Positions 13,805 to 64,000 of a stretch of DNA of 64,000 nucleotides are shown here, piece after piece. The stretch's first letter is position 1. Each line of letters opens with the position of its first letter. The notes below the pieces were generated by a model. The model was not told the DNA's origin. It made no database searches and saw only the letters and a program-made list of their open reading frames with translations. Both the position numbers and the translations under genes were made by a program. This DNA comes from Blasia pusilla (lineage: Eukaryota): NCBI GenBank assembly GCA_050084515.1, contig CM114271.1, positions 48,112,001 through 48,176,000 of the forward strand, in the 5' to 3' direction.

Positions 13805-14545
13805 CTATTCTGCGACCCGTCGGGTCCCAACGTGTTGCAAGACCCAGGAGCCACCTACTGCAACCCGTCCGATTCCGACGGGTTGCAAGAACCTTTGGCC
13901 ACTCCGGGCTGGAAGATCCAAGTGCAAGTCATCCGAAACCCATCCGGGTCAAACTATTTGCAAGCCTTGTATACATACGACTTGCATACTTGTATACGGG
14001 TTGCACCAAAATTCTTGATACAACCCGTCGGTTTCCAACTGGTTGCACACTCAAGAAACCCATCCGTTTCCGAAGGGTTGCACACTCGGGCAACCCGTCG
14101 CACCCGACCAATTGCTTGGTTTCTTTGGTTTGAAATCCCTATAGTTCCCACGCTTCTCAACTTGAGCTGCAACTTTTCAAACAATTCTCAGCATGAGCTT
14201 GACAAGACGAAATAGTGAACTCACCTGCCGCATGAAGTTTTCCCATTGTCTCATACGTACAGTCCACCAACTCAGCCAAGAGCACAACTCTTTGTACTTC
14301 CCCTCAATCGCATCCTTCCTCCACCACCCATGAAGTTCTTCTTGGCATTCCATGGCCTGTTTCAAGGTTTTTCTGTCCTTGCAGCGTTGGAGTAGAGTGA
14401 TGCTCTATCCTCTTATTCTCCTTGATGCAAGATTTGGTGTATCGGGTCACAGACTCTTGCCAATGGAAAGCATCCGACCTTTCCCTCTCCGGTTGAACCT
14501 CTCCACCCCAGAACACTTCCCTGATAGCAATCCACCCAGGTTGTG
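13805..14545 (-). mobile_element. Detached fragment of the palindrome-rich Mutator-like element (homolog of 53595-54298)
   Basis: Colinear, high nucleotide similarity to 53.6-54.3 kb. Encodes QPGWIAIREVFWGG...DAFHWQESV and carries the CAACCCGTCGG palindromes. Confidence 0.92.
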
Positions 14546-16084
14546 AAGAGTGGGACATTCGACATCAAGCAAGGAGTGGCTCAAGGATGCCCGCTCTCCC
14601 CCACCCTCTTCAACATTTTCGTGAATTCCCTATTGGAAGAAATGGAGGATAGTGGACTAGGCATACAGGTGGGCAACAACTCTATTGTTGCCCTCATGTT
14701 TGCTGATGACTTTGGTGGCCTCGAGGAAACAGGAGAGAAACTCCAAGAGATGATCTCCCTTACCAAAATCTGCTGTGACATGTGGGGCATGGAGGCAAAT
14801 GTACTGAAGTGCGGTGTGATGATTTTCAATGGCAAGGAGGAGGACCAAGACCAACAGTGGTAATGGGGTGACCAAGAGATCCCCCGTGTGGCTACCTACA
14901 CCTATCTGGGCATAGAATTCTCGGAAGATTGCATGTGGGATGCACACATCAAGAAGACTACTGAGAAAGGCCACAAGAAGGTGAACGGTCTGTCTAGATT
15001 CCTATAGTGCCGGGACATCACATCATAAGTAAAGCGTTGTGTCATTTTGCATACCATTCGTCCCTCGCTGGAATACAGGGCAGCAGTGTGGGATGCCAAC
15101 ACCAAACAAAGGGATAGGCTTGAAGCTGTGCAGCTGAAGGCGTTTCGGGGTATGATGTCAACTTCATCACAAACAGCCCGCGTTGGTGTGAGATCAGAAC
15201 TAGATGTGGAACCCTTGGAGGATAGACGTGACATCGCCAAGTTGAAATGGCGGAGGCAGCTGGAGACAATGGACTCCCATTGCTATCCTAAAGAGGTGAT
15301 GGGGAAAACCTGGACCCAAAGAAGACCCGTACAACAGGCCAAATCTTGGACGAAGAAGGTTCAAGAGATTGTGCAAGCATCCAAGCTCCCAGAAGGGCCT
15401 GAACTGTGGGAGCAAGATGAGAAAGCATTCGTGGATACCATAACCAAAGCAGTGGGCAAACGCTCACAGCAGAATAGCAAGGAGGAAGCCATGAAAATGT
15501 CTGACCTCTCTCTTTTGACGGTATATCCCGAGAGGGCAGAATTGAAGAACTACTTGCGGGACCCCTTGCTTGGGAACCCAGCTCAAGTTCAAGTTCAGGA
15601 CGGGGGCAATCCCCTTGAACCATAAGAAAAGCAGGATGGGAATACAACTAAACTCTTGCGCCTTGTGTGACGATGGGGACGAAACCTCTGGTCATTACTT
15701 GGTCTCCTGCGCAAAATTCACAACACACAGAGCAAGAGCATATGCTGATATTGCTAAGCTGGTAGCACCAGAATAGTTCAACACATTCAGTAGCCTTGAT
15801 TCATTGCCCAAAGTCTTTGACTGGTAAGTAATGTCTATTGGGGATCCCAATCAGGTAAAGTAGATTGTGTGATGAAGAGTTTTTGGTTGACACTTGGAAG
15901 CTCCGCACAAACACGTTGTTTGGTCAGCACTCACACTATATGAGAATGTCTCCCTCCTCTCATATGGTACCTTCTTCACTTGCTTCTCTCTCTACACCCA
16001 TCCCAGTCTCAAACATCGTCCAACCAGGGCGTGGGTTTAGGTCTATGGTCGCAAGGCTACGACAAGCACTACTTAATGAGTACA

Positions 16085-16140
<56 letters not shown>
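14546..16140 (+). mobile_element. 5'-truncated LINE of the same family as 3902-6490, with a C-terminal CCHC finger and a (TC)n tail
   Basis: QGCPLSPTLFNIF, MFADD and CALCDDGDETSGHYLVSC. Ends in (CT)n at ~16087-16140. The 5' junction interrupts the transposon fragment after CCAGGTTGTG. Confidence 0.93.
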
Positions 16141-25324: not shown

Positions 25325-25713
<389 letters not shown>

Positions 25714-44100: not shown

Positions 44101-45270
44101 GTGATGCCTGTCAAAGAGCAGGTTGACCAACGGCAACCTCGCGGTGGCCTTTGGTACCCATCATGCCCCTAGCTCCTTTTGAAAAATGGGGTATTGACTT
44201 TGTGGACCCTATCTCCCCCGCTACTCGCCAAACACGGCGGAAGAATGTCCTTATAGCCACCGACTATTGTACCAAGATAGTCGAGGCGGTGGCCACGCAA
44301 AAAGATGACAGTGAAGCAGTGGCCAAATTTTTATACAAGATGATTATCACTTGGTATGGCTGCCCATTGGAATTAGTAAGTGATTGTGGCACTCACTTCT
44401 TAAACAAGACTATTGAGTCTCTAACTTCCCACTTTCTCATTAAGCATTGAAAAACCACGCCCTACAACCCTAAAGCCAACGGGTTGACGGAAAAATCTAA
44501 CGGCCTGATCTGCGGATATTGAATCGATTGACACTAACGTATTCATATGATTGGGACATGAAAATCGCCGCGGCATTGTGGGCATACCGAACATCTGAGG
44601 AGGTTACTACAAAGTATACCCCGTTCTTCCTGACTTATGGCGTTCATCCCTTGACACCTATTGAATGGAACCCACTTATTGAGTATTGGAAGGAACGAGA
44701 ACGGAGGCCGTTGGTGAAGTTTTCCAAGGAAGGAATGAGACCTTAGTTGCATTGGAAGAAGCACGCACGTTAGCTTTACGCCAGACAGAACATGTGCAAA
44801 ATGAACTCAAGCAACGTTACGATCGACATCTCCGGCCACAATCTATAAGCGTTGGAGACTTGGTGCTGTTGTACGATAACCGGTGGCTCAAGTTCCCCGG
44901 AAAATTAAAATTAAATTGGATGGGACCCTATCGGGTATTGGCCATCTATGATAACGGATCACTACAGTTGGGGAGCTTGCAAGGAGAATCCCTGCCCACT
45001 CGTGTCAATGGAATGCATGTTCGTCGATATTATGAGCCTCAACCCTACACGGACTGAAAGAGGAGGAAGGGGGTGAGCGACTGCCTCAAGCTTTGCAAAA
45101 GCACGAGGATACTGGGACTTTGCAAAGCGTGATGGATGGGAGCTTTGTAGAAGCGCGAAGCACAAGAGTTCTTGAGCTTTGCAAAGAAGTGAAGCGCCAA
45201 ACTAACTCTTACAGTTCCGGCGCCAACACCAACAGACGCTGGGACTATATAAGCGTCCCTACGGAACCAG

Positions 45271-48525: not shown

Positions 48526-51500
48526 TGTCACTACCAATGGTGGGTCTGGAACTGGAGCTCTCGGCTTCGGAGGAGAGTTTTACGCTCCAACTAGCCAATC
48601 GTAATTTGCCTCTGCCTCCTTGCAAAGGTCAAACAGTTGTTGCCTTCCCTCAAGGTAGAGAATGTTCTTGCCACTCTGCCAGGCGCCTCTGATACTCGCC
48701 CCTGAAAGGCCCACTAAGTCGAACACCAAGTCACCCGACCTTGAGCAGAGCTCGATGAGCGTTTGCATCAGGGCTGGCGACTTTTCCCTTCCTCCAAGTA
48801 ATGGGGTACCGTCTTGCATGAAAATTCCCGGGGGAAAATTGTATAAACTATCTAAGCTGTACCCATCGGAGCATGGATCCACAGGATCCAGGATCTTAAA
48901 CACCTGGAAGCTGTGCTCGAGCCGAACAAAGCAGTAAACATAGGAGTGGTCCATCTGTAAAGAAGCACGTTGGAAACAATGTCAGCAACAAACAAAGAGC
49001 TACTTGGCCACTGGTCTACTCTCAGTATGGTGACATAATGTGCAACACGTCCCCAAAGAACTTTGCTTAACCCCAACAAACTTCTTTATAATCCTAACAT
49101 TGGAGCAACCTGTCGGAGTCCGACGGGTTGTTTCACAAGTGTCTTGTGATTTTTTTGTCCATGAGCAACCCGTCGGAAGGCGAAAGGTTGTTCGCTTAGA
49201 GCAACCCATGGTTGGCTAAGAGCAACCTGTCGCTTTCACACGGGTTGCATCATTCCAGAAAATTGCAAAAGCATTAGCACTTGCAACTCGTCGGGTTCTG
49301 ACGGGTTGCATTCACCCAATGGAGACTTACGGTAAATTTGCAACCCGTCTCTTTCAGACGGATCGCAAACAGACCCAGCTCAAAAAATACGACGAGTTGC
49401 ATGCAGAGATGCAACCCGACGGAGAAAGAAAATTTGGATACAAATTTAGATCCCTTACCCGAATTTGACTCGTTGCGGATCGGAGTGGGTACTCGTTCTT
49501 GATGACCCACGATTGCGCCATCCTCCACTTCAGGGATCTCTTGACGCATTGGAGGTTGAAGAGCTTGTCCTTGCTCCCTCCAGTCAAAACTAAGAAACAA
49601 TCCGTGTCACTGAGATAAGCGTTTGCAAAGGAAAACAGGAGCGCAATCTGGTCATAAGAAAGAGGGACATTCCAGTCTGGGACTCGGTCGGACGGATTCT
49701 TGTCCCACAAGCGCAACCTCAAGGGCAAATCAGCGACGAGGAGATCCACCGCCACCTCTTCGACCTCCCCATGGACCGTCCAGGGAGCGTGGCCGTTTCG
49801 TTGAAGCTTTCGTCCCAACGTTGTCAATTTTTCGAAGGCGGGTGTTGACGCTTGGGAACTGAAACTTTTCAACTCATCCAGAAGATTCGTGTAGTGAAGG
49901 ATGATGCTTGTCCGGGTCGTTTTTTTTCTATGTCTTCCCAAGGATGATGGAATGTATTCCACATCGTGGTCTGCTCCCTGGGACAACCCTGGCGCCTCTC
50001 ACTTCCGCTTCTCCCGAGTCTACAGTCGGCTTGTTGGGGTCTCTATGACCTCAGACTTTGGTGGAGTTTTTTTTGCGGAGGACCTGGTCCGACCCTCTCT
50101 CCCCGCTCGCCCCAATGATTCTGGCTCTTGCCTTGAATTTTCAGCCTCTCTATGGGAAGACTTGGCCTCAAAATTCTTCGATCCCCTCGCCTTGGCTTTG
50201 AGACCCGCTGTAGATTTGTCCTTGGCGGTGACAACGACCTTGGACACCAACTCTGCTGTCTTGAGGGCTTGCTCCTCTGCATCTCCTTCGAAAAAGTCTT
50301 CAGGCTGCACAAAATTGGGGATATCGTCCCTACCTGCGGCCACTGCATCATAGAGCAGGCGTAGATCTTTCTCAGTTATGTCCTCGGGGTCGTTGAAGTC
50401 CAGCCAAATCGGGAAATTCTCCACCTCCCAATCGGACATGCTTTGAGCCATCTCCATGTCATACATGGAAAATGTCTCTCCATCAGGCGGAGAAGCCCAC
50501 AATTTGCAGGCTGCCGGTATTTTTTGCCATGTACCTCCATTCTTACAATGGACAAGGTACCTGAACACCATGCGTTGGGAAGCTCTTAGTCGAGATGCAT
50601 CGGCCGCATGCTCCTGAAGATTTCGCTTCTTCTTTGCGAAATCCCTTTTTTTTGCCTCTATTTCTTCGTCAAGGTCTGCCTGAGGGAGGATGCGATTATT
50701 GAACATCGCCTTGAAACCTGGGTTTCTTCGGGGCTTGTCCCGCATGTCATCCAACCAAAGTTCAAAATCTTAAGCACTCTCTAGGTTTGCTTCCTCCGGA
50801 ACTGGCTCTATTCTTTTCAGCTCCGCTTGGAGACCCACGAGGATGGACTTCCCGAGAAGCCGCAACGCGTCCCATAATGACCATTCACAGAGCCAGTGGG
50901 AGATCACAGGATCAGAGATACCCGGAGTATGGTGTGCCGCCCTCTTTTGGGCCTCTGTGCCCTCGAGACTGATTTTCATCTGTCGGATTCTCCTAAATTT
51001 GCTAATTCCAGACAAGGCAAATGGATGCATGAGATCGAGAGACACTTTCTCCCCAATCCGACCCTACGGATCTTCATCCCTCTTCCGTTGGCGCTTGATG
51101 ATTACTTTCAGCTCCTTGTAGAAATCAGAGCCAAGTTCGTGGTTGAGAATGACGATGTAGCGCTGCATCTTGCTTGCCGTGTACTTCGTAGCTGCAGATA
51201 CTGCATCATGGATGAACTTTGCACGCTCAGACATAGACACTTTCTCCCTCCGCTCCAGCTCCAATGCATCGCTCTTCTTGGCGGTTAGTATCTTCGACTA
51301 GCAAAGGATTGCCACGGCTGCATCTTGGGAAATAAACTTATTTGCCCAAGTCTTTTTTTTTATTTGAGCACCCTTTGCGAGCATCTCATTTACAAGGGCG
51401 TCGCCCAAGAACCCCTTGTTTATTGCCGGGTGCGTCGTTAGCACTTTCTTCACCCGATCGCAATCCTGGATCCAGTGGTGGGTGACATTCCCCTCCGATA

Positions 51501-51530
51501 CAATCCTGCACATCCAAACTCAATATTAGA
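48526..51530 (-). pseudogene. Copy 1 of the transposon cargo gene: middle region plus beta-class N6A/N4C DNA methyltransferase (no ParB exons)
   Basis: VDLLVADLP (motif IV-like), CFLVL (VI), WVIKN, intron 49458-48955, DHSYVYCFVR (VIII), REKSPALMQTLIELCSRSGDLVFDLVGLSGASIRGAWQSGKNILYLE (X, I, II). Internal stops. Confidence 0.75.
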
Positions 51531-52005
51531 AATTTTGCAATGTACATGGGTTCCTGCAACCCGTCGGACTTCGACAGGTCCTCACAACTGAGGTGCTGTA
51601 AGAGGAGAGGAAGAGAGGAAGAGAGGAGAGAGGAAACTACCTTCAACCGAAATAGATACTTTTTTTTTAAGAAAGTTTCCTCTGATTTGAAGAGAGTTTC
51701 CGTTGGGTTGAAGAGAGGAAACTTTTTGTGTGAATTTTTTTGCACTTTTTTGCTCAGTTATTAAGTAGTCCCACAATTTTTTTTTCTCTTCCATATTTTG
51801 GCAACCCATCTGAGTCCGACCGGTTGCAAATTGCACAAAATTTACAAAACTGAAAAATCAGTGGAATCATAAGTGTGGAACCAATCACTTTTTCCATCCA
51901 AGGTCTGGAAACAATCTATCATTTGCCCTGGGCTGAATAGAGTTCAAGCTCAAAGTGATGGTTCTTGAAGAATGAAAGTACAATCTAAAACCTCATTTTG
52001 CATCC

Positions 52006-55000
52006 TCAAAGTGGTTTGTTTAAAATACTTCGCACTTCTTTGAGGGACAGAATTGGTTGGTGGATTCCTACTCCTACCTCCGACTCTCTTAAAACTACCA
52101 GCAACACATAGTACATGTGCTTACAAGGGAAATACCTTTTGCCTCTCTCTTTGGACAAAGTCATCACATGAACATGTGGGAAAGCAACAGATATGCACCA
52201 CATACACCCCTGTGACACTTGTTCTTGACCCAATACATCCTTCCTATTCCATTGCCACTCAAGACATCTTTCGTGGCGATGATCTCCATTTTTGCCTCTC
52301 GAGCTGATGCAATTCGCTTTGCTCTCTCCACCGTTGGCCTACACATTCTGTTTCTCTTCACCCCATTTCTAGACTCAAACAGAAATAATGGATTGAGATC
52401 ATCCATCTTCTCCGGTACATGTTGACATCAATCTTGGGTTGAATACAAAATGCGAAGGTCTCTGTAATGCGAACATGCTCCGAACTTCCTCCGTCTACGA
52501 GTCTGAAACCGACACTTGTAAGATTGTCCACTTCGTCTTGAGTGCAGTTCGTACCTGCGGCGATGGGCCAAATCGTGGGGGTATTCCCGGGAGCTCCAAT
52601 GGCAGCCGGATAAGACTTCCGGAAAGTGCAAGATTCATTTGAGCAAAAGAAGTACTTCAATTGATCCCCGGTCCTCGTGAAACAATCAAAGGTTTTGAGT
52701 CCCCAAAACCCAGGCAGTGGTCGTCCAGTCCTTGTACAGTTCTTATTTAGGAAAGTGCCGCATGCTCTCCTAATGCCATCAGATCCTACCCTGCAGGTGG
52801 GTCCACGTCCTGGATTGCTCTGAGATATATGCCATCGTTTTAGGTTGCAATCCACCTCCATTAACGGAATCCCATATTGTTGAACCACCCGAGTGACCGG
52901 ATGTAGGGAACTTCCAGCAACGGAGGGCTTTTGAAATAAAACATTCACTGATTTTGGAAAAGGGTCTCCATCACAGATTTGGGAGCGTCCGGGGTCCCCG
53001 AATACCTGGGCGGCGTAATTTCCTCATCCAAATCAATCACCAAATTTGTTCCTCGATGCTGCCTCTTCACCTGCCTGAAGTCAAGATACTTATTTGGCCT
53101 CCACGAGTCTCGCTCCGACTGCTCTACCACCATCTGTATGGGACGTCTTGAAACCCGCCCACAAATATCCCCACCAATGTGTACGTCTTGCTCGAGGGGA
53201 GTTCCACTTACGCACCGGTTGAAGGCTTCCACATACAATTTTTCATCACTAGATCTCACAGCCTCTTTGACATAGAGCTCGTAGATCGACGGCCCCCTTC
53301 CTTTTGTTATGCCTTTTATGAGGAAGATATGGGATGCTGCAGACTGTAGCATTGCTCTTGCCTGGTCTTGTTGGCATGCCTCCACAAGTGAAATTCCTTG
53401 GCATGCTTGTGACGACCTCTAGGAGGAATGAACACTTTCTACTCCACTTGTGTTGGGGCAGAGGGCATTTTCATGAATGTTCAATCCCTGCAACGACGAC
53501 AATGTTAGAAGGGAACGAAAATAGCTCAAGAGTCAAAGAAATAAGCTACCTATCAGAAACAGATGGGTTGCAAGGCCAAGGCATCCCATGAACGACTCTG
53601 CGACTCGTCGAGTCCCGACGTGTTGCAACTCTAAACCCAACTACTTCAACCCGTCGGATTCAGACGGGTTGCAAGAACCTTTGGCCACTCCGGGTTGGAA
53701 GATCCAAGTGCAAGTCATCCGAAACTCATCCGGGTCAAACTATTTTCAGGTCTTGTATACATGCAACTTGCATACTTGGATACGGGTTGCACCAAAATTG
53801 TGGATGCAACCCGTCGGATTTCGACGGGTTACACACTCGGGCAACCCGTCGCATCCGACAACTTGTTGGGTTTCTTCGGTTTGAAATCCCTATAGTTCCC
53901 ACGCTTCTCAACTTGAGCTGCAACTTTACAAACAATTCTCAGCGTGAGCTTGACAAGACAAAATAGTCAACTCACCTGCCGCATGAAGTTTCCCCATTGT
54001 CTCATATGTACAGTCCACCAACTCAACCAAGAGCACAACTCTTTGTACTTCCCCTCAATTGCATGCTTCCTCCACCACCCATGAAGTTCTTCTTGGCATT
54101 CCATGGCCTGTTTCAAGGTTTTGCTGTCCTTGCAGCGTTGGAGTAGAGTGACATGCTCTGTCCTCTTATTCTCCTTGATGCAAGATTTGGTGTACCGGGT
54201 CACAGATTGTTGCCAATGGAAAGCATCCCACCTTTCCCTCTCCAGTTGAACCTCTCCACCCCAGAACACTTCTCGAATAGCAATCCACCCAGGTTGTGCA
54301 TTGTCCGCCATGAACCCATAAATTTCCGGAGGAGGCCTTTTGTTTTCCTTCACCACCTCCAATAAGAGTAACCAGCACATCTTCAAACTGCCAACGTCTT
54401 ATGCTTTTACTTCACAAAAAAATATAGTTTTGAGTCCCTTCTCCACATGGTCATAAACGTGAGCACCCATTGTCAACCATCCGTTCAGCACTCTATAGCA
54501 AATATCAAAGCTTACCCAGCTACCGTAAAGATCTTCCCCTTCCCTCATTCGATCTATAAGATTGAGGCCACCCAACGGACCTGTGGTTGACATTTTGAAG
54601 ACATAGGCCCTAGATCCCTCGCCTCCTTGGCCCATGAACTGCCATCTCTGAATGAATGGAAATTTGGAGTTGGCCTTGATTCTGGCGATGGCATCCATTT
54701 TGGCCGTCTTTCCATCCAGAACCCATATTTGACGCAGCAAATTCCGGAAGCATTCAGGATCAGCGAGAAATACGAGATTTTCCGAGAGTTATTTCTCCTC
54801 AGCCGCCGTGATCTCGCCCTGTCCACGGATTCCAAGTAATTGTTCAAAAATTTGTGATGTTGTTGTGAGCTTGATCACTCCGGGCTTTGAACCTGGAGAG
54901 TTTCTGTAGACCTCGCCAACTTTCTTCGCCACATCCTCCTTGATGTGTCTCTGAATTGCATCGGTCATAGGATGAGTGTGGGAGCCAACATGAACTGCCA

Positions 55001-55850
55001 CCCTTGTGTACTCCGACGTAGAGCCCAAGTGGTGGACAATGAAAAATATGTATGCAGGACACGCTCCAACGTAGAAGGGCGATGCCTGACAATGAGGACA
55101 TCGATGGCCTCCCGGCGGTATGGTGGCACCGACCTCGTATGGAGTTTCTGCATTCTTGGGGGGGAATTGCGACATATTGACTTGCTCGTTGCGCTCTAGA
55201 TACGTGCATGCTGGACTTCTACACTCCAAGGCTCCAACGCATTGGCGACGGGAAAAAATCCAAGGACCATATGGAATTGAAGCACTAGTCCGTTGAAGCC
55301 TGCACCATCGATAACAATCAGACTGTATGTCCATACCCTTCAGGAGTCCTCCATCTTTCTTTTGAGCAGGAGCAACAAGTGGAGGCTACTCAAAAATGCA
55401 ATTACCATCGTAAGTGGGCGGCTGCTCGTCGACAAGAATGTGCTTGAACATTTTCAAGGCCAGAGACCATAGCAAACTATTGCCTGATACTCGCAAGAGG
55501 AACGAGTAGGCAGATAGAGGGCCCGGTTGGTGTCTGACATATCCACTGAGGTTGATAACATCCGGAATCTCTTCAGGAAGAACAACATTGTTACGAGCGT
55601 GTGAAGTTGGAGTCAAAGCCAGATCTATTGAGCTAGGAGTTGCAAACGTAGAGCTTGGTGCACTAGGAAATTCTTGATTGTCTACTTGGGAAACAGAGGA
55701 ATTCAGGGGCAAGCCGTAAACTCTGTATTGACCATTTGCTAGAGGTAGGAGATTCCATACTTTACAGTCTGAAATCAATGGCTGGACTGTCTCACCTATA
55801 ATGTCCTCCATACCGTCCACACTAACATCCTTGGATACAAAGATGGTTCC
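52006..55850 (-). mobile_element. Mutator-superfamily transposase pseudogene: GCM-like zinc finger, DDE core, SWIM finger
   Basis: CVGALECRSPAC...CPHC...C...HVGSHTHP; SFDICYRVLNGWLTMGAHVYD; GFMADNAQ; DAFHWQQS; CSC...PCKH (frameshifted). Intron donor near 53975. Stops at 55386, 54789 and 54399. Confidence 0.75.
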
Positions 55851-55899
55851 AATTTGGAGAAGAAATCAGAGACATGGGTTGCGAAGCACACTTCATTTT

Positions 55900-56900
55900 G
55901 TTGGAACCCGTCGGAGTCCGTTGGGTTGGTACCCCCTTCTTGCCGACCGAAGATCTTTTGAGGCGATTTTTCTAGCATCAAACATAAGATATCGCTTGCT
56001 TATGCTAGGGCAACCAATCGTTGGGGACTTTTGCGGGATTGTCCAACTCAGGGTACATCTTGTGACCCGTCGGATTGCAATGGGTTTCCTCGGAACAATA
56101 CGTTGTCGCATTGTTTCCCGAGGGATAGGAAAGAGTGTAGCCTATCGATAATCGATGGGTTGCCCTGGTACCTCGCCTATTAACCCAAGATAAGCGAAGT
56201 GTGCAACCCGTCGGCTTTGGGGTTGCACGCTTCTGCCTCACCTTGTAACGCAAACATGAACGAAGCTGGCAACCTGTCGCTCTCCGACGAGTTGCGCAAG
56301 TACCGCGCCTTCTTGCCCGAAGACAGTGGAGGCGCCCAACCCGTTGGCCTCAGAGGAGTTGCGAAATTATCTCACGGTGTAACACTTACATTAAGGAAGC
56401 GTGCAAACCGTCTGTTTCCGACGAGTTCCGCGGGTGCCGCACCTTCTTGCCCAAAGACGGCGAGGCGTGCAACCCGTCGACCTCAGACGGGTTGCGCAAG
56501 GGCCTCGCCTTGTTTTACTTACATGAAGGAAGCGTGCAATGTGTCGGCCTCCGAAAAGTTGCACGGGAAGCCCGTGTTGTTATCCCTTGACGAGGGAAGT
56601 GTGCAACCCAACGGTCTCCGAAGGGTTGCGCGGGTACCTCGCCTTCTTGTCTGAAGACGGCGGAGGCGCGCAACCTGTCGGTCTCTGACGGGTTGCTCAG
56701 GCACCTCGCGTTCTTGTCCCTAGGACCGCGGAGGCGCGCAACCTATCGGACTCCGACGGGTTGCCACGAGGACGGATGCCTTGAACCCTCGGGAAGCGTG
56801 CAACCCGTCGAAGCCGTCGGGTTGGTGTTTTTCACGTCCAGACTTCTGTAACGGCTGGCACGTCGCGGTCGGAAGGACGATGCAACCCAACGGTCAGTCC
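55900..56900. repeat. Array of ~66-67-bp units, each containing the palindrome GCAACCCGTCGGA-n-TCCGACGGGTTGC
   Basis: Degenerate palindromes at ~56203, 56269, 56335, 56402, 56469, 56535, 56603, 56669, 56738 and 56800. Confidence 0.88.
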
Positions 56901-56914
56901 AATGGCTCGAAAAG

Positions 56915-56922
56915 TATAAATA
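56915..56922 (+). promoter_or_regulatory. Candidate TATA box of the ParB-MTase gene
   Basis: TATAAATA just after the palindrome array, followed by a pyrimidine-rich initiator-like stretch, 335 bp before ATG 57250. Confidence 0.5.
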
Positions 56923-57022
56923 GGGGAGAAATCACTCATTTCCAGTTTTTCATTTTGCGATCTCAATTGCTCTCCCGTGCACCAACTGACCTGATACCAA
57001 GGTGCGCTTTACACGGCGACTC

Positions 57023-57161
57023 ATCGCGAGACGATTCGAGCGAACGATCGTGAGACGATACGAGTGAACGATCGCGAGACGATACGAGGGAACGATCGCG
57101 AGACGATTCGAGCGAATGATCGCAAGATAATTCGAGCGAACGATCGCGAGACAAATCGAGC
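57023..57161. repeat. 24-bp CpG-rich tandem repeat, ~5.8 copies
   Basis: ATCGCGAGACGATTCGAGCGAACG units starting at 57023, 57047, 57071, 57095, 57119 and 57143. Confidence 0.92.
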
Positions 57162-58423
57162 TACCCATCAAGGCGACTCATCTTGACATCAGCAAGGCGA
57201 CTCATCAAGCGATTCATCGTGCACATAGGTGGAGGCATTTCCGGGAAAAATGATGAGGAAAAAATCTCAAGCAAACAAGGCTGGGAGCTTCACTCCCAAG
57301 TCCATCAGAACTCCTGCGTCACCATCTCCAAGGCCTCGTTCGGCCAATGAGATAAGGCAGCAAGAAATCGAGGAGCAAGAAAGGGAAGCGGAGATGCACA
57401 AGCAGGAGCTTCTTGCAAAACGTGTATAGGAGGCGCTCAAAAAATAGAATGCAGAGGCTGAGGCGTCACAGGCCTTGAAGAAAAAATTATTTACGAAAGG
57501 CGAGAAAAGAAGCGTCCGGACGCGTTGGTGAGGAGAGAAGAATTGGCTAAAGCTTGGAGGGAAAAAGAAATAGCCATTGAAGAAAGCCCTGCCCGTCCAG
57601 CCGAAAGTGTTGAGATGCAGGAAATGTCTCCGATGAAGTCCGGGGACACAATCAATATAGCGGAAATGGCCGAAGTTCAAGTCACGGACGATGAGGTCAT
57701 GAGGACCGCCAGCGTGGAGATGGTGGACATCGCTGAAGAAGTAGGAGAGCGGTCATCCTCGTCTCTAAGCCCGGTGGAAGAAATCGACCTCTATCGGATC
57801 GACAAGTTTCCAGTGGACTTGCCAAAGCAGTTGGCTGGCCAAGACACTGACCCAATCTTCGAGCGGGTAAGAGAGGATCTGTGTTTTTTGAATTATGTGA
57901 AGGCCCATGTTGCAATTCATTGGCAATTCAGTGTAGCTTATTGATCTTGTTCCCATTGTGACAGGTGGTAAAGCAGATGGCACTGATGGAGGGCCACAAC
58001 GCCCCGAGAATTCCACTCTGCCGATTGCGGACAATGGAGTACGTCCGTAAAATTTAGTCTGACGAGGATATTGCGAAGCTCAAACAATCGGCGGCGACAA
58101 CATCCTACGTCGACAGCTTCCCTCCATTCTATGTTCAGCCTTTTGATGACCATGGAACCCAAGCGCTGGTTACGGGGGAGGACTTGGAATCGCTCGACAC
58201 ATTCTGGAGGATGAGAGATCAGGAATTCAGAAGGGCGATAGAGGGGACGGAATTCAGCTGGATGAGGAATCTGTATTTCTTCATTTGGGATGGAAATCAC
58301 AGGTTCATGGCGTTGTCATGTCGAGAGTCTTTCTTCGAGCAAGGGCAGGCCTTCTAGCTGCGGTAGATGCGGTCGATGCAAGGTGAACTCTCTAATAAGT
58401 TCTCCTTTTTCAATACAAAATTA

Positions 58424-59541
58424 TGATGTACACTCTCCATTCTCTCACGACAGGTATCACAAATGGAAGTGCCGAGGCGATCACTTCTTTGTAACATCGG
58501 ACCCCGAAATTCCTAACTATAAAATCCCTATAAACTATTTTATGTTTGTACACGAGGAAGATAGCACAACTAGTGTTAAACCCTACTTGACCAGGCCTAT
58601 TGACATCCATGGATCGCTATATAAGGACATACAAAGTACAATCCCATGTCCTTCCATATGTGACGATAGGAAGAATCACGGAGTTGGAGATTGCATGACC
58701 TGGTTCATGAACGCCTCCCCAAAGTGATAAACTAAATAGCGAGTGAACCAGTGCCTATCTACAAAGAGTACCTTGACATGGTAAGGATTGAGGAAAGGAA
58801 AGTCGGGCACAGCTCGTGCTCCACCCCTATCCATGCTTGACAGACATTCTCTACTCTCCTCAAGAATGGGTTTTGGCGGAGTTATTCTCCCAAGAGGGGT
58901 AATCCACTCTCATTGGGAAAGTAACAAGCCAAAACATCCGCTATTTTAGTATGACTAGACTCCTCTACGGTGACAAACCTCTCATGCCCCCCACACACAC
59001 ACACCACACTCTAGAAACCTCTCGAAGAATAGACCATGATCAAGTTACTCTCCCAAGAGGGGTGATCCACTCTCATTGGAAGAGCAAGCAATCCCAAAGC
59101 CATACACTCAAGAGAGACACGAGAGACTCAAGATGTGGAATAGAAGGTGATGAACCCTTGAAGGTCCCTCCTCTTTATATACTCACAAGGGATCCACAAG
59201 AGTACGAAATAGAGCTTATCTTATCTTGTGCCACATGGCTTCCTCTCAAGGCTTAGCCAATCACATTTTGACACAAGTAGATTTCCTCTTATCTCTTCCA
59301 AAATATCCTCTTTTACCCACATGATATTTTCCAAATTACCCCAACTAACCTAGCCACCAACCAAGACTACTTTTGTTTTTCATTAAAGCAACTACTTTAC
59401 TTTTGTAAAGTCATCTTTTATTTATTACCTACTTTTCCTAAAGTTGGGCCCGCATAAAAGAGGCACCATAAAGAGGTTTAAACATAAGAATCTCCTTTTT
59501 CTAAGCCAATTTACTTAATACTAATGAAACTCTATCTAACA
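58424..59541 (-). mobile_element. Probable solo LTR inside an intron of the ParB-MTase gene
   Basis: Minus strand starts TGTTAG and ends ACATCA. It has a TATATAAAG box and lacks the host element's palindromes. No clean TSD seen. Confidence 0.55.
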
Positions 59542-59734
59542 CTTAATGACGACGGAGTTTACACACTGGTCGATTTTACTATACGACAGCGTGGACAAAG
59601 TTTGCAGAGGAGCGCCCAAACTCATTGGAGGCACATTTTTGCGTGAAGGCAGTGGTGCTACATCCATACCCTCATCACATGGCGACGGTGGAGATGGCCA
59701 TGCATGCCATGAACACGTAAGTTTCTTCTTGCTG

Positions 59735-60432
59735 CAAACCGTCGGACTCTGACAAGTTGTTTGAGTCGCCATTATTTTTGGGATGTTTTTGGCCAAAAGC
59801 AACTCGTCGGACTTCGACGAGTTGTTTGACTGACCACAAGTTTAGGATGTTTTTGGCCCAAAGCATCTCGTCGGAGTCTGACGAGTTGCTCGACTGGCCG
59901 CATTCTTTGGATGTATTTTGAAGAAATCAACTCGTTGGACTCCGACGAGTTGCTTGAGTGGCCGCATTCTTTGGATGTATTTTGAAGAAAGCAACTCGTC
60001 GGAGTCCGACGAGTTGCTCGACTCGCCGCATGTTTTGGATGTTTTTTGAAGAAACAAACTCGTCGGAGTCGGACGGGTTGCTTGACTCAAAGCTGTTTTT
60101 GAATGTTTTTTGATGTTTTGGCTGAAAGCAACTCGTCAAAGTCTGACAGGTTGCATTCGGAAGTTGGGAGCTACATTTTTGGCGTCAAATTGCAGCTTTC
60201 ATTGAAATTGCGCAACCTGTCAAACTCCGACGGGTTGATATGTTCACTTTTTTCGCGGTAACCACTATGTAAATACGGACTATCTGACAACCCGTCGGAC
60301 TCCGACGGGTTGAAACCAGGCAATCAAAAATCTGAATGCAATCCGTCGGACTCCGATGGGTTGCAAAATTTAGCTCGTTGCTACAATCCAACCATGAGCT
60401 GTGACGACCTGTCGGAGTCCGACGGGTTGCAA
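59735..60432. repeat. Intronic array of ~64-bp units with the same palindrome
   Basis: GCAACTCGTCGGA-n-TCCGACGAGTTG variants at ~59735, 59799, 59862, 59927, 59991, 60055, 60128, 60211, 60288, 60338 and 60405, lying between the GTAAGT donor (59717) and the CAG acceptor (60480). Confidence 0.9.
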
Positions 60433-63400
60433 GAACCCATGTACCTTACAAAATTTCTTATATTGAGTTTGGATATGCAGGATTGTATCGGAGGGGAATG
60501 TCACCCACCACTGGATCCAGGATTGCGATCGGGTGAAGAAAGTGCTAACGACGCACCCGGCAGAGTACAAGGGGTTCTTGGGTGACGCCCTTGTAAATGA
60601 GATGCTGGCAAAGGGTGCACAAATAAAAAAGAAGACTATGGCAAATAAATTTATTTCCCAAGATGCAGTCGTGACAATCCTTTGCTGGTCGAAGATACAC
60701 GCCGCCAAGAAGAGCCCTGCATTGGAGCTGGAGCGGAGGGAGAAAGTATCTGTGTCTGAGCGTGCAAAATTCATCCAAGCTGCAGTATCTGCAGCTACAA
60801 AGTACACGGCAAGCAAGATGCATCGCTAAATCGCCATTCTCAACCCTGAACTTGGTCTTGATTTCTACAAGGAGCTGAAGGCGATAATCAAGCGCCAGCG
60901 GAAAAGGGATGAAGATTCGCAAGGTTGGATTGGGGAGAAAGTGTCTCTCGATCGCGTGCATCAATTTGCCTTGTCTGGAATAAGAGAATTTAGGAGAATA
61001 CGACTGATGAAAATCAGTCTCGAGGGCACAGAGGCCCAAAAGAGGCCGGCACACCATCCTCCGGGTGTCTCTGATCCAGTGAAATCCCATGGACTTCTTG
61101 AGAAGACGTGTTGCGGCTTTTCAGGAAGTCCATGCTCAACGGTCTCCAAGCGGAGCTGAAAAGAATAGAGCCACTTCCGAAGGAAGCAAACGTGGAGAGT
61201 GCTGATGATTTCGAACTTTGGCTTGATGACATCCGGGACAAGCCCATAAAAAATCCAGGTTTCAGGACGATGTTCAAGGATCGCATCCTCCCTCAGACAG
61301 ACATTGACGAAGAAATCGAGGCGAAAAAAAGGGGTTTCGCAAAGAAGAAGCGAGATCTTCAGGAGTAGGCGGCCGATGCATCTCAACTAAGAGCTGCCCA
61401 ACGCATGGTGTTCAGGTACCTCGTCCATTGTAAGAATGCAGGTACATGGCGAAAAATACCGACAGCCTGCAAATTGTGGGCTTCTCCGCCTGATGGAGAG
61501 ACATTTTCCATGTACGACACGGAGATGGCTCATAGCATGTTTGATTGGGAGGTGGAGAATTTCCCGATTTGGCTGGACTTCAACGACCCTGAGGACATAA
61601 CCGAGAAAGATCTACGCCTGCTTTATGATGCAGTGGCCGCAGGTAGGGATGACATCCCCAATTTTGTGCAGCCTGAAGACTTTTCCGAAGGAGATGCGGA
61701 AGAGCAAGCCCTCGAGACAGCGGAGTTGGCGTCCAAGGTCCACACAACCAAAGACAAATCTACATCGGGTCTCAAAGGCAAGGCAAGGGGATCGAAGAAT
61801 TCCGAGGCCGAGTCTTCCCAAAGAGAGGCTGAAGATTCAAGGCCAAAGCCGGAATCGTCCAGGCGAGGGGGGAGAGAGGGTCGGACCAGGTCTTCCGCAA
61901 GAAAAACCCCACTAGAGTCTGAGGTCATAGAGACCCCAACAAGCCGACCGCACACTTGGGAGAAGCGGAAGCGAGAGGCGCGAGCGTTGTCCCAAGGAGC
62001 AGACCAGGATAAGGAATATAGTCCATCATCCTTGGGAAGACATAGAGAAACAACGACCCGGAAAAGCATCATCCTTCACTTCACGAAACTACTGGATGAG
62101 CTGAAAAGTTTCAGTTCCCAAGCGTCGACACCCGCCATCGAGAAATTGACAACGCTCGGATGGAAGCTTCAACGAAACGGGCACGCTCCGTGGACGGTCC
62201 ATGGGGTGGTCGAAGAGGTGGCGGTGGATCTCTTGGTCGCTGATTTGCCCTAGGGGTTGCGCTTGTGGGATGAGAATCCGTCCGACGGGGTCCTAGACTG
62301 GAATGTCCCCCTTTCTTATGACCAGATCGCGCTCCTATTTTCCTTTGCAGACGCTTATCTCAGTGACATGGGTTGTTTCTTAGTTTTGACTAGAGGGAGC
62401 TAGGACGAGCTTTTCAACCTCCAGTACGTCAAGAGGTCGCTGAAGTGGAGGACGATGCAATCGTGGATCATCAAGAACAAGTACCCACTCCGATCCGCGA
62501 CGAGTCAAATTCGGGTAAGGCTCTATTCCTCTCTCCAGATTATATTTCTCCGACGGATTGTTTTTGTCCATGAGCAACCCGTCGGAAGGCGACAGGTTGC
62601 TGGTTGAGAGCAATCCGTCACTTTCCGACGGATCGCATCATTCCACAAACACAGGGAAAACGCATTACCACCTGCAACCCGTCGGAACCCGACGGGTTGT
62701 AGGTGGTAATGCATTTTCCTTGTTGGAAAAATCTCGTTTTTTATTACCTCCGAAGGAACCTCGGAAATGTACATTTGATGTAGTCTATGATTTCTTCAAC
62801 CTCGTCATCTACAAATATACTCCTAACTCTCCTAGGTTCCTCTACAAAAGGAATGTCTTGGGATACAAGTGGCTCCTGTGGCCGATTATAGACGGGGATC
62901 GAAAATGTTAGCGAATTTGAGAGCCTTGGCCCCCCCCTAGGTACACCATAACGGTCCCATGTAACCTGATTTGAGTCCCACCGCCTTCCTCGGTGGTATA
63001 TCTTGTACGCTCTATAATGTGACACCCATCCAGTATCAATATGTGCTTCGTCCTTGAAAATACCATGATGGCAATCCCACAAGTAGTAGGAATCCAGCAC
63101 GTCTGAGAGAAGAGAAGAAGCCTACGCCTTGTTTGACGATACTAGGGGAAGGTGCCAAAGTGAAGAAGCCGGCCAAACTGCCTCTTAAGTTGGACCAAGA
63201 GGGAAAGAGTCTGATCACTCACTTAACCAACGTGTTGGAATCCGACAGGTTGCCTAGAAGTGGTTAAAAAGGTGCAGTGGTCAAAAAGTGAAAAGTTGCA
63301 AGTCGTGGAAATCCGACGGGTTGCAAATTAGAAGTCCTCGGAGTACATAGACAATCACAGTCGAAAAGACACAAAAGATATTCAGCAAACTTTTAGAAAC

Positions 63401-63555
63401 ACCACCATCGTTCGAAAAAATTTTGTCCTTTATTAGATCCGAAAGAAGCTCGGAACTGTACATTTCATCTATTCTATGAATTATTTTGCCCTCGTCATCA
63501 AATAAATCCCTACTCCAAACGTTGCAATCAAGCTGGGTCCTTGAGTTCTTTGAAC

Positions 63556-64000
63556 TCACTCATCATTGTTCGAGAGCTCTTGCAAAATTACTTTCCGCCT
63601 TGCCCTCCCGATTTTTGGAATCGTGTTAAGTGACGATGGTGTCACTACCAATGGTGGGTGTGGAACCGGAGCTCTCGGCTTCAGAGGAGAGTTGTACGCC
63701 CCAACTAGCCTCTCGTAATCTGCCTTTGCCTCCTTGCAAAGGTCAAATAGTTCCTGCCTTCCCTCGAGGCAGAGAATGTTCGTGCCACTCTGCCAGGCAC
63801 CTTTGATACTCGCCCCTGAAAGGCCTACTAAGTCAAACACCAAGTCACCCAGCCTTGAGCAAAGCTCGATGAGCGTTTGCATCAGGGCTCGCGACTTTTC
63901 CCTTCCTCCAAGTAGTGGCGTACCGTCTTGCATGAAAATTCCCGGGGGGAAATTGTATAAACTATCTAAGCTGTACCCATCGGAGCATGGATCCACAGGA
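63556..64000 (-). pseudogene. Copy 3: C-terminal methyltransferase exon (continues beyond the window)
   Basis: REKSRALMQTLIELCSRLGDLVFDLVGLSGAS. 63640-64000 is a direct repeat of 48526-48886. This exon has no internal stop, so the status of the full copy is unknown. Confidence 0.75.

What the first reader, a model, noticed from the sequence alone, without database searches (positions are those of the whole stretch)
55900..60432. Periodic ~27-bp palindrome arrays restricted to the promoter and introns: candidate parS-like or transposase-binding sites
The consensus GCAACCCGTCGGA-n-TCCGACGGGTTGC recurs dozens of times (13.8-14.1, 49.1-49.4, 51.55-51.83, 53.6-53.9, 55.9-56.9, 59.7-60.4, 62.55-62.7 and 63.2-63.3 kb). 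Spacing is often ~64-67 bp, about six helical turns. The palindromes are largely excluded from exons. Some arms covary (CCC/GGG versus CTC/GAG), so symmetry appears to be maintained. Inference: these could be loading sites for the ParB-MTase (by analogy with palindromic parS), binding sites for the GCM-like domain, or intronic RNA hairpins that feed small-RNA pathways.
Basis: partly seen in the sequence, partly recalled or inferred. Interest (0 to 1): 0.8.

Follow-up and report, generated by a model that had tools for sequence, protein, structure and literature searches.

The report
Transposon-specific palindrome arrays in non-coding DNA
A 27-base palindrome is repeated about forty times in the promoter, introns and flanks of decayed copies of a Mutator-like plant transposon, most likely as clustered docking sites for a DNA-binding protein the transposon itself encodes, much like the motif arrays already known from Arabidopsis VANDAL and Spm elements.

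Summary
The palindromes are real. The half-site occurs 61 times against 0.75 expected, and there are 41 full 27-bp palindromes in eight clusters. All 41 lie in the 16.2 kb of one repeat family, and none overlaps coding evidence.

The family is a decayed Mutator-like transposon. Its transposase pseudogene (minus strand, 55865-52006) has no Pfam match. It folds as a WRKY/GCM-type DNA-binding domain followed by an RNase-H-like core closest to the IS256-family ISCth4 transposase.

The claimed arm covariation fails. Pairing is 82.2% against 81.5% when shuffled, and the CTC/GAG variant is one event copied by tandem duplication.

Three results suggest constraint on the DNA sequence. Palindromes are better kept than spacers within arrays. 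They are the only sequence shared between clusters, at 71% against 29% for flanks. Some related transposases carry different palindrome arrays, one in the homologous intron, while most do not.

My best reading (about 0.5) is clustered binding sites for the element's own DNA-binding protein, as in VANDAL/VANC or Spm/TnpA. The ParB-MTase/parS idea is poorly supported. No RNA, small-RNA, methylation or genome-wide data could be obtained.

The parts
55903..56764 (.). Array 1: 10 palindromes between the divergent transposase gene and gene B. Eight of them follow a 66-68-bp period from 56269 to 56764. The array ends about 150 bp upstream of a TATAAATA box.
56914..56921 (+). TATAAATA box, with CCAAT at 56900-56904, upstream of the gene B start region. 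This is a promoter inferred from sequence only.
   Evidence: read from the sequence; no RNA evidence
59734..60430 (.). Array 2: 11 palindromes filling the putative gene B intron 59717-60480 (GTAAGT...AG). The first six follow a 64-bp period.
53545..53832 (.). Array in the putative transposase intron (minus strand, about 53971 to 53489): 4 full palindromes plus half-sites.
   Evidence: exons on both sides supported by tblastn/tblastx
51556..51827 (.). Two palindromes in the 3' flank of the transposase gene. The one at 51556 is the paralogue of 60404, at the edge of the copied gene B segment.
49105..49366 (.). Five palindromes, 57-61 bp apart, between the methylase-like exon fragment and the inverted copy of the gene B 3' half.
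62574..62700 (.). Three palindromes just 3' of gene B.
63227..63324 (.). Two palindromes between gene B and the methylase-like exon fragment.
13812..14081 (.). Four palindromes in a truncated paralogous fragment (13809-14545, 88% identical to 53597-54298), cut off at 14545/14546 by a retroelement.
52006..55865 (-). Transposase pseudogene. The first large exon, 55865-53970, carries 3 in-frame stops (P0001). Further exons at 53499-53200 and 52957-52018 carry many stops. It has a WRKY/GCM-like domain (residues about 154-303), an RNase-H-like core (about 400-620) and a SWIM-like CxxC...CxH near 52.1 kb.
57250..62253 (+). Gene B, an accessory gene of unknown family with a DGNHR motif at about 58.3 kb. 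It has an in-frame stop at 60827-60829, and the intron holding array 2 lies at 59717-60480.
49390..51589 (-). Inverted copy (89% identical) of the gene B 3' half (60397-62584).
63559..64000 (-). Exon fragment with a weak N6_N4 DNA-methylase motif-I match. A 93% identical direct copy lies at 48526-48886, within ORF 48583-48981.

Best explanation
The 27-bp palindromes are clustered recognition sites for a sequence-specific DNA-binding protein encoded by the transposon itself. The most likely candidate is the WRKY/GCM-type N-terminal domain of its Mutator-like transposase, binding as a symmetric dimer with one subunit per GCAACnnGTCG half-site. The sites have accumulated in every non-coding part of the element: the region between the two divergent genes, introns of both genes and the 3' flanks. 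They spread there by tandem duplication of 64-67-bp units. A dense cluster gives the protein a long, element-specific address that a short motif alone could not give. The address would recruit the protein for assembly of the transposition complex. It might also serve self-specific transcriptional activation or anti-silencing, as shown for VANC on VANDAL, TnpA on Spm and the AtMu1 transposase. Shown here: the palindromes, their restriction to non-coding family DNA, their better conservation than surrounding sequence, the fold of the transposase, and different palindrome arrays in some relatives. Inferred: that any protein binds them, which protein it is, and what binding does. The copies in this window are dead (in-frame stops, about 11% diverged), so any function belongs to the active ancestors.
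For: (1) The geometry is fixed at 13+1+13 in all 41 copies. The best-kept columns are C2, A4, T9, C10 and their mirror G18, A19, G23, T24, T25, G26. The centre is the most variable part. This fits two contacted half-sites around an uncontacted centre. (2) Symmetry is kept by each arm staying near consensus, not by compensatory change. That is expected for double-stranded DNA read by a dimer, not for a selected hairpin. (3) Within arrays the palindrome is better conserved than the spacer: 76% against 52% and 81% against 71%. With the last unit of array 1 dropped, the figures are 75% against 60%, and the palindrome block ranks 2 of 68 (array 1) and 9 of 65 (array 2). (4) Between clusters the palindrome is the only shared sequence. 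Over 640 pairs it is 71% identical, while 54 nt of flanks are 28.7% identical against 28.4% for random 54-mers. The clusters are therefore not uniformly decayed segmental copies. (5) Array 1 ends just upstream of a TATA box. (6) The transposase has a DNA-binding fold. Foldseek matches GCM 1odh_A with prob 0.97; VIA-align gives Z 6.5 with 140 of 157 aligned. WRKY domains align over their whole lengths at Z 5.8-6.0. The core matches ISCth4 with Foldseek E 1.8e-4, prob 1.00, and Z 7.2-7.5. (7) Some relatives have their own palindromes. L011, the closest locus (47% in the best segment), has three copies of a different 24-bp palindrome 84-90 bp apart in the positionally homologous intron. The L053 family has a 51-bp-period array. 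L078 has a 64-bp-period array. By my criterion 9 of 80 loci hold three or more related palindromes, against 0 of 80 shuffled loci. I count only two of those nine, L011 and L078, as clear arrays. That scan also missed the low-GC L053 array. (8) No gene-B-like sequence was found in those 80 loci, so the arrays go with the transposase lineage. (9) There is precedent. VANC-bound motifs form tandem repeats in introns and upstream regions of VANDAL21 (PMC5735166, passages read). TnpA binds dense motif clusters and the AtMu1 transposase binds and activates cognate copies (bioRxiv 10.64898/2026.08.24.746577, sections 4 and 7 read). Galileo THAP sites lie in tandem repeats within the terminal inverted repeats (PMC3688188, abstract read).
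Against: No binding was or could be tested. The trait is patchy: none of the homologous intron regions in 8 other relatives has a short palindrome array. Most of the 80 loci show no arrays, although many are short contigs. Paralogous palindromes in the window diverge about as fast as their surroundings; by eye, that is 12 of 81 positions for three pairs, against about 12% overall. So there is no sign of constraint after these copies died. In the L053 family the inner three pairs show weak compensatory variation (13 cells against 6.5, 20 of 500; covariation score 11 of 500), which points towards structure or arm-to-arm correction. Exclusion from exons is expected under any hypothesis. The fold matches have Z under 8, a range where unrelated matches occur (note). 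GCM and WRKY domains are known (recalled) to bind as monomers to short motifs, so dimeric reading of a 27-mer is my inference. The element's ends were not found, so the relation of the arrays to its termini is unknown.
Confidence: 0.5

Rival explanations
1. The arrays are structure-prone palindromic minisatellites with no protein partner. Once a palindrome exists it is multiplied by slippage, hairpin-mediated template switching and arm-to-arm correction. It survives only where it does not break coding sequence.
For: The two main arrays are plain tandem repeats. In L011 the middle palindrome is the centre of a longer inverted duplication. The L053-family unit consists of two interleaved palindromes. 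There is weak inner-pair covariation in that family. Paralogous palindromes are no better conserved than their flanks. Exclusion from exons needs no special function.
Against: This reading does not explain how the same 27-mer was seeded in at least eight clusters whose flanks are no more alike than random sequence. It also does not explain why the palindrome is the best-kept block of each unit. In the window, symmetry is not maintained beyond consensus conservation.
Confidence: 0.2
2. The arrays act as RNA. Transcribed intronic arrays fold into hairpins or long imperfect double-stranded RNA that feeds small-RNA pathways, either as a host silencing trigger or as an element-encoded decoy.
For: A single palindrome folds at -20 kcal/mol. 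Neighbouring palindromes pair with each other into stems of about 27 bp (95 nt, -51 kcal/mol, z = -7.5). The 764-nt intron folds at -332 against -220 kcal/mol for shuffles (z = -16). Rfam gives miRNA-precursor-like matches below threshold (26-32 bits against gathering scores of 70-200). Tandem repeats in VANDAL non-coding regions are targets of RNA-directed DNA methylation (PMC10398659, passages read).
Against: There is no compensatory covariation in the window. The strong fold follows automatically from repeating any palindrome. Array 1 lies upstream of the inferred TATA box, so it would not be in the mRNA. No Rfam family reaches threshold. No RNA data could be examined.
Confidence: 0.15
3. 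The arrays are loading sites for the accessory gene B product, read as a ParB-methyltransferase, in analogy to parS.
For: A DGNHR motif lies in ORF 58058-58354. There is a weak PF01555 motif-I match in 63559-63999(-) (E 0.014). The arrays flank gene B and fill its intron. A Riccia gene model (P0131) joins a transposase N-terminus to a gene-B-like exon, so gene B travels with this family in another species.
Against: No ParB, DGQHR or methylase family reaches threshold in Pfam or NCBIfam. Three database searches found no homologues of gene B or of the methylase-like exon. The methylase-like exon is on the opposite strand to gene B in the right-hand copy. Relatives carry palindrome arrays although no gene-B-like sequence was found in the 80 loci. 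The palindrome centre, which holds GANTC in only 15 of 41 copies, is its least conserved part.
Confidence: 0.07
4. The arrays are binding sites for a host transcription factor or CpG-rich regulatory modules captured by the element, acting as enhancer or promoter repeats.
For: The arrays are CpG-rich islands (observed/expected 1.14 and 1.21 against 0.45-0.85 elsewhere). Array 1 abuts a TATA box.
Against: All 41 copies lie in this family and none in the other 48 kb of the window, which includes a host gene. Related elements carry different palindromes. That fits co-evolution with an element protein better than use of a conserved host factor.
Confidence: 0.05

Closest known systems
VANC target-motif arrays of Arabidopsis VANDAL21/VANDAL6 (Mutator superfamily); PMC5735166 and PMC10398659, passages read
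   Same: A short element-specific motif is concentrated in the element's non-coding regions: introns of its own genes and the region upstream of the transposase gene. It is organised as rapidly changing tandem repeats and differs between related families. The host element is Mutator-like and carries accessory genes.
   Different: The VANC motifs are 8-9-bp asymmetric words, whereas this is a 27-bp palindrome. No VANC homologue was sought or seen here. Binding and hypomethylation are shown for VANC and only inferred here. The host appears to be a bryophyte-like plant, not an angiosperm.
TnpA motif clusters of En/Spm (CACTA) elements and AtMu1 transposase sites; bioRxiv 10.64898/2026.08.24.746577, sections 4 and 7 read
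   Same: Dense clusters of a family-specific motif are needed for target-specific binding by an element-encoded protein. The motifs co-diversify with element lineages. A Mutator-type transposase alone can bind and activate cognate copies.
   Different: Those clusters lie at the element termini. Here the termini were not located, and the arrays also fill internal introns. The tail-to-tail dimer arrangement of maize TnpA sites is recalled, not checked.
Internally repetitive terminal inverted repeats of Foldback-like elements (Galileo, PMC3688188 abstract; Tm1 Mutator/Foldback, PMC3169594 abstract)
   Same: Tandem repeats carry multiple transposase-binding sites that are thought to supply binding specificity. 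Some such elements encode Mutator-type transposases.
   Different: In those elements the repeats make up the terminal inverted repeats. Here arrays lie between genes and inside introns, and no terminal inverted repeats were identified.
Bacterial parS/ParB centromere sites
   Same: Both are palindromic DNA sites proposed to load an element-encoded protein.
   Different: No ParB family match was found for any ORF. parS is a 16-bp site present in few copies (recalled), not arrays of dozens. The sequences are unrelated.

Membership tests
Mutator superfamily (MULE) transposon | RNase-H-like DDE transposase core of the Mutator/IS256 type | tested here: inconclusive
   There is no Pfam match (PF10551, PF00872 or any other) for P0001 or for the 24 aligned family members, P0001 among them. 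The AF2 model (mean pLDDT 73.7) matches the IS256-family ISCth4 transposase best: Foldseek E 1.8e-4, prob 1.00, and VIA Z 7.2-7.5 over model residues 400-620. Hermes and retroviral integrase cores are within 1 Z. D454, D521 and a D/C-x-x-H motif after the second D are conserved. That this is the Mutator signature is recalled.
Mutator superfamily (MULE) transposon | N-terminal WRKY-GCM1-type zinc-finger DNA-binding domain (Babu et al. 2006, PMC1702500, passages read) | tested here: met
   GCM domain 1odh_A: Foldseek prob 0.97; VIA Z 6.5 with 140 of 157 residues aligned. WRKY domains 5w3x_D, 7z0r_A and 2ayd give Z 5.8-6.0 and align over 73/73, 80/81 and 76/76 residues, on model residues about 154-303. 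Conserved Cys/His columns are seen in A1. All Z values are under 8, so the support is moderate.
Mutator superfamily (MULE) transposon | C-terminal SWIM zinc finger | tested here: inconclusive
   A CxxC...CxH pattern occurs in ORF 52009-52338(-). It aligns by tblastn to the C-terminus of P0039, which UniRef labels 'SWIM-type domain-containing protein'. No Pfam SWIM match was found.
Mutator superfamily (MULE) transposon | Long terminal inverted repeats (or none) and 8-11-bp target-site duplications (PMC6446971, passages read) | tested here: inconclusive
   The element ends were not found. The copies are rearranged, one runs off the window, and no genome is held.
VANC-type anti-silencing target arrays | Element-specific short motif concentrated in tandem repeats in the element's non-coding regions | tested here: met
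VANC-type anti-silencing target arrays | The motif differs between related element families | tested here: inconclusive
   The window's palindrome is absent from 80 related loci (747 kb; no match with up to 6 mismatches). L011, the L053 family and L078 carry other palindromes. Most loci show none.
VANC-type anti-silencing target arrays | Bound by an element-encoded protein that removes DNA methylation | not testable with these tools
   This needs ChIP or DAP-seq and methylomes.
parS/ParB partition-type site | A partner protein with ParB N-terminal and helix-turn-helix domains | tested here: not met
   No ParBc or related family was found at E up to 10 (Pfam) or up to 1 (NCBIfam) for ORF 58058-58354 and the other gene B ORFs. 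Only a DGNHR motif is present. The one structure job on gene B used ORF 57462-57941 and gave pLDDT 54, which is unusable.
N6_N4 DNA methyltransferase (PF01555) | Pfam match above the gathering score, with motifs IV and I | tested here: not met
   ORF 63559-63999(-) matches only model positions 165-220 at 15.8 bits against a cut-off of 26.7 (E 0.014). ORF 61369-62250, which holds 'ASPPDG', gives no match. No homologues were found.
miRNA / hairpin-RNA precursor | Match to a curated RNA family, or covariation that supports the stem | tested here: not met
   The Rfam best hit is 32.5 bits against a gathering score of 70. There is no covariation in the window.

The most novel reading that the evidence does not exclude
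A large, so far unclassified clade of Mutator-like transposons exists in bryophyte-type plants. It has 298 representative proteins, at least 333 metagenome loci and no Pfam model. On this reading it uses lineage-specific palindromic 'address' arrays. The window, L078 and the L053 family share a CAAC...GTTG outer frame with different inner bases; L011 has the reverse frame. The arrays are spread over the promoter and introns and are read by a dimer of the transposase's WRKY/GCM domain, giving each lineage self-specific activation or anti-silencing. This would be an ancient, independently evolved counterpart of the angiosperm VANC and TnpA systems. It would also be a natural series of matched protein-motif pairs.
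Probability: 0.25. Interest if true: 0.7.

Novelty: new variant of a known kind. Interest (0 to 1): 0.45.

Why it matters
Element-specific motif arrays that let a transposon recognise only its own copies are documented for a few angiosperm families (VANDAL, Spm, AtMu1). A palindromic version in a distant, unclassified Mutator-like clade would suggest the strategy is old and recurrent in land plants. Related lineages carrying different palindromes, one at the same intron position, would add to that picture. Together they would supply many natural pairs of DNA-binding domain and motif for studying how specificity co-evolves. If instead the arrays are only self-propagating palindromic minisatellites, they still mark hot spots for deletion and rearrangement inside the element.

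Tried and rejected
- **GANTC idea.** I considered the palindrome centre as a CcrM/HinfI-type GANTC methylation target. Only 15 of 41 palindromes have GANTC, and the centre is the least conserved part. Rejected.
- **Helical phasing.** Spacings range over 35-84 bp in many phases. Rejected.
- **Palindrome-bounded inversion.** I considered an inversion of the gene B 3' half bounded by palindromes. Array spacers align weakly in both orientations because the palindromes are symmetric. Left open.
- **Whole genome.** None is held, so no genome-wide motif count was possible.
- **Sequencing runs.** No RNA holder is listed.
- **Read laying.** No read evidence on introns, expression or small RNAs exists.
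- **Exact 27-mer in JGI metagenome contigs.** 0 matches. The perfect consensus does not occur in the window either.
- **Word-based homologue searches.** Nothing was found for P0001, ORF 61369-62250 against longer proteins, or ORF 63559-63999(-) against longer proteins.
- **Sequence families and solved structures.** Pfam, NCBIfam and PDB sequence searches gave nothing for the transposase family or gene B.
- **Second structure job.** I sent ORF 57462-57941 by mistake instead of the DGNHR ORF 58058-58354. It gave pLDDT 54, so the ParB-fold question was not tested by structure.
- **Earlier findings of this scan.** Nothing was found by place, sequence or words.
- **Supplements.** None of the cited papers' supplements were opened. 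The motif maps of VANDAL, Spm and AtMu1 that they may hold were not seen.

Full report
**Observation**

The half-site GCAACCCGTCGGA, allowing up to 2 mismatches, occurs 61 times in the window against 0.75 expected from shuffles; the largest shuffle count was 4. Scoring every 27-mer against the full consensus gives 41 non-overlapping palindromes, all with 13+1+13 geometry.

TRF reports a 67-bp array (56603-56764, with a 133/134-bp higher order from 56236) and a 64-bp array (59740-60113). Of 31 neighbour spacings, 12 are 64-68 bp. The others range from 35 to 84 bp, plus three of 159-160 bp. The 'six helical turns' is therefore just the unit length of two arrays, not a general phasing.

**What the surrounding DNA is**

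No genome is held for this window. It is eukaryotic, with GT-AG introns, a Ty3/gypsy element at 42.5-44.5 kb, other retroelement copies and a DUF3082 gene.

A self-comparison shows that the palindromes lie in one repeat family:
- 49390-51589 is an inverted copy (89%) of 60397-62584.
- 48526-48886 is a direct copy (93%) of 63640-64000.
- 13809-14545 is a copy (88%) of 53597-54298, cut off by a retroelement.

All 41 palindromes lie in this 16.2 kb of family DNA. None lies in the remaining 48 kb.

**The transposase**

The minus-strand frame 55865-53970 is one 632-codon reading frame broken by three stops (P0001). A word-based search found nothing. A full HMMER scan of 1.84 billion representatives found 298 proteins with E up to 0.001 and 16 with E up to 1e-30. 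The hits that carry a name come from the liverworts Riccia sorocarpa and Calypogeia fissa, and one is labelled 'SWIM-type'.

None of the 24 aligned family members (P0001 included), nor the three further hits scanned, matches any Pfam family. A profile search of PDB sequences is also empty.

tblastn of the hits shows that the gene continues through 53499-53200 and 52957-52018. It includes a CxxC...CxH SWIM-like stretch.

An AlphaFold2 model built on the 24-sequence alignment has mean pLDDT 73.7 and is good from residue about 120 to 620.
- Foldseek's best matches are the IS256-family ISCth4 transposase (E 1.8e-4, prob 1.00) and, for the N-terminal part, the GCM domain bound to DNA (1odh_A, prob 0.97).
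- VIA-align gives ISCth4 Z 7.2-7.5 over residues 400-620.
- It gives GCM Z 6.5 with 140 of 157 residues aligned.
- Three WRKY domains score Z 5.8-6.0 and align over their whole lengths on residues about 154-303. Hermes and integrase cores lie within 1 Z of ISCth4, and all values are below 8.

A WRKY/GCM domain, then an RNase-H-like core, then SWIM is the architecture Babu et al. describe for Mutator-like transposases (PMC1702500, passages read). I therefore call the element Mutator-like. Its ends, terminal repeats and target-site duplications were not found.

**The accessory gene**

On the plus strand, ORFs from about 57250 to 62253 form 'gene B'.

The evidence is thin. There is a DGNHR motif in ORF 58058-58354. 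There is also a sub-threshold PF01555 match (E 0.014; 15.8 bits against a cut-off of 26.7) in exon fragment 63559-63999. In the right-hand copy that fragment lies on the opposite strand to gene B.

Pfam and NCBIfam give nothing else. Searches for homologues were empty. My one structure job on this gene used the wrong ORF and was of low confidence.

A Riccia gene model (P0131) joins a transposase N-terminus to a sequence like exon 60467-60907. Gene B therefore does accompany this family in another species. Both genes carry in-frame stops, so the copies here are dead.

**Where the palindromes sit**

- Array 1 (55903-56764) lies between the divergently oriented transposase gene and gene B. It ends about 150 bp upstream of a CCAAT/TATAAATA pair at 56900-56921.
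- Array 2 (59734-60430, 11 palindromes) fills a putative gene B intron bounded by GTAAGT at 59717 and AG at 60480.
- The cluster at 53545-53832 lies in a putative transposase intron (CAG|GTGAGT near 53971, AG near 53489). Homology-supported exons lie on both sides.
- The other clusters lie in 3' flanks.

None of the 41 palindromes overlaps homology-supported coding blocks or my putative exons.

**Hairpin or double-stranded site?**

On the 41 aligned palindromes, 82.2% of cells form a pair against 81.5% after shuffling; 103 of 500 shuffles reach the observed value. Cells changed on both sides number 12 against 8.3 expected (52 of 500). Symmetry is therefore kept by each arm staying close to consensus.

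The best-kept columns are C2, A4, T9, C10 and their mirror. The centre is the most variable part. Of 164 deviations from consensus, 41 are CpG transitions, about three times the rate per possible change elsewhere (my arithmetic from the counts). The arrays are CpG-rich.

As RNA the palindromes would fold strongly, and neighbouring palindromes can pair into stems of about 27 bp. This follows from repeating any palindrome. Rfam gives only sub-threshold miRNA-like matches.

**Signs of constraint on the DNA word**

Within arrays the palindrome is better conserved than the spacer: 76% against 52% and 81% against 71%. With the last unit of array 1 dropped, the palindrome block is 75% against 60% and ranks 2 of 68 (array 1) and 9 of 65 (array 2).

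Between clusters, over 640 pairs that exclude known paralogous clusters, palindromes are 71% identical. Their 54 nt of flanks are 28.7% identical, the same as random 54-mers at 28.4%. The clusters are thus not uniformly decayed copies of one segment. The 27-mer alone is shared.

Against this, paralogous palindromes between the dead copies differ about as much as their surroundings.

**Relatives**

A pattern search of JGI metagenome contigs with a tighter alignment found 333 loci encoding relatives. The best 80 were kept, totalling 747 kb. None holds the window's palindrome, allowing up to 6 mismatches. None holds gene-B-like coding sequence.

Some relatives have palindromes of their own:
- **L011.** This is the closest locus (47% in the best segment). 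It has three copies of a different 24-bp palindrome at about 1106, 1190 and 1280, with unrelated flanks. They lie right after the exon end ...WGNYIRLV|gtaatg and before an exon that matches the window's next exon (tblastx 44%, E 1e-12). This is the same intron that holds the 53.5-53.8 kb cluster in the window.
- **The L053 family.** L053, L028, L037 and L056 are about 80% alike over more than 12 kb. They carry a 51-bp-period array of a 26-bp palindrome.
- **L078.** It carries a 64-bp-period array of a 28-bp palindrome.

By one criterion, 9 of 80 loci hold three or more related palindromes against 0 of 80 shuffled loci. I regard only L011 and L078 among those nine as clear arrays, and the scan missed the low-GC L053 family.

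The trait is patchy. The homologous intron regions of eight other relatives have no such palindromes, and many contigs are short.

The window, L078 and L053 palindromes share an outer CAAC...GTTG frame; L011 does not. That is a lead, not a test.

In the L053 family the inner three pairs show weak compensatory variation: 13 cells against 6.5 expected (20 of 500), with a covariation score reached by 11 of 500 shuffles. This keeps a structure-based or arm-correction process in play.

**Reading**

The pattern most resembles what is documented for VANDAL. There, VANC-bound 8-9-bp motifs accumulate as fast-changing tandem repeats in introns of VANB and VANC and upstream of VANA, and they differ between families (PMC5735166 and PMC10398659, passages read).

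Two further precedents come from one preprint (bioRxiv 10.64898/2026.08.24.746577, sections 4 and 7 read). TnpA needs dense motif clusters in Spm. The AtMu1 transposase alone binds and activates cognate copies. In Foldback-like Galileo, THAP sites lie in tandem repeats within the terminal inverted repeats (PMC3688188, abstract read).

I therefore favour, at about 0.5, clustered binding sites for an element-encoded DNA-binding protein. The WRKY/GCM domain of the transposase is the best candidate. The rivals are self-propagating palindromic minisatellites (0.2), an RNA or small-RNA role (0.15), gene B loading sites (0.07) and host-factor sites (0.05). All functional steps are inferred; nothing was or could be bound, expressed or mapped here.

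**Novelty**

I rate this a new variant of a known kind. It is a palindromic, 27-bp version of element-specific motif arrays, in an unclassified Mutator-like clade whose named members are liverwort proteins.

My literature searches covered liverwort, Mutator, ParB and methyltransferase terms. They also covered ParB, N6_N4 and transposon terms and foldback, Mutator and subterminal terms. None turned up a description of this family or its arrays. These are word searches of an open-access library only.

Noticed in passing
window 52006-55865 (-); proteins P0002-P0165; loci L001-L080: The transposase belongs to a sizeable family with no Pfam or NCBIfam model. It has 298 representative proteins (E up to 0.001) and at least 333 loci in JGI metagenome contigs. 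The members that carry a name are liverwort proteins.
   Followed up: partly
P0131 (Riccia sorocarpa) against window 60467-60907: A Riccia gene model fuses the transposase N-terminal region to a gene-B-like exon. This mirrors the left-hand copy in the window, where the transposase gene is followed in the same orientation by the gene B 3' half. It could reflect a shared deletion derivative, alternative splicing or a merged gene model.
   Followed up: partly
window 61480-61500 (ASPPDG in ORF 61369-62250); 63559-63999(-) and 48583-48981(-): An SPP-containing motif in gene B, together with a weak PF01555 motif-I match in a separate exon fragment, hints at a degenerate N4/N6 DNA-methylase relic carried by the element. 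Marchantia sperm 4mC methylases have TSPPY motifs (bioRxiv 10.1101/2021.02.12.428880, passages read). No relationship was tested.
   Followed up: partly
window 57023-57161: A 24-bp tandem repeat (5.8 copies of ATCGCGAGACGATTCGAGCGAACG) lies between the TATA box and the start of the gene B reading frames. It is a second, different repeat in the leader.
   Followed up: no
L053 2150-2545; L028, L037, L056 equivalents: In this related element family the 51-bp unit consists of two interleaved palindromes. The inner three pairs of the main one vary between AU, GC and GU, which is weak covariation.
   Followed up: partly
window 62741-62830 and 63431-63516: Two similar stretches of about 90 bp lie about 690 bp apart in the region between gene B and the methylase-like exon. 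Each is followed or preceded by palindromes. The origin is unexplained.
   Followed up: no
window 42574-44447 (+): A Ty3/gypsy-type retrotransposon pol region with RVT_1, RNase H, integrase zinc-binding and rve domains, lying next to the transposon cluster.
   Followed up: no
window 3888-5867 and 14546-15987: Two inverted copies (about 92%) of a retroelement with RVT_1. The right-hand one truncates the transposon fragment at 14545/14546.
   Followed up: partly
window 30877-33191: An AT-rich 181-bp satellite of 12.9 copies, with a 359-bp higher order.
   Followed up: no
window 36215-36721: A 32/70/102-bp tandem repeat lying inside an open minus-strand frame.
   Followed up: no
window 3638-3901, 25411-25640, 16087-16140: Very long perfect GA/AG/CT dinucleotide runs (132, 115 and 27 copies) flank the retroelement copies.
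   Followed up: no
window 7391-8715 (-): A split DUF3082 gene of a plastid/cyanobacterial type. It is the only evident host gene in the window.
   Followed up: no
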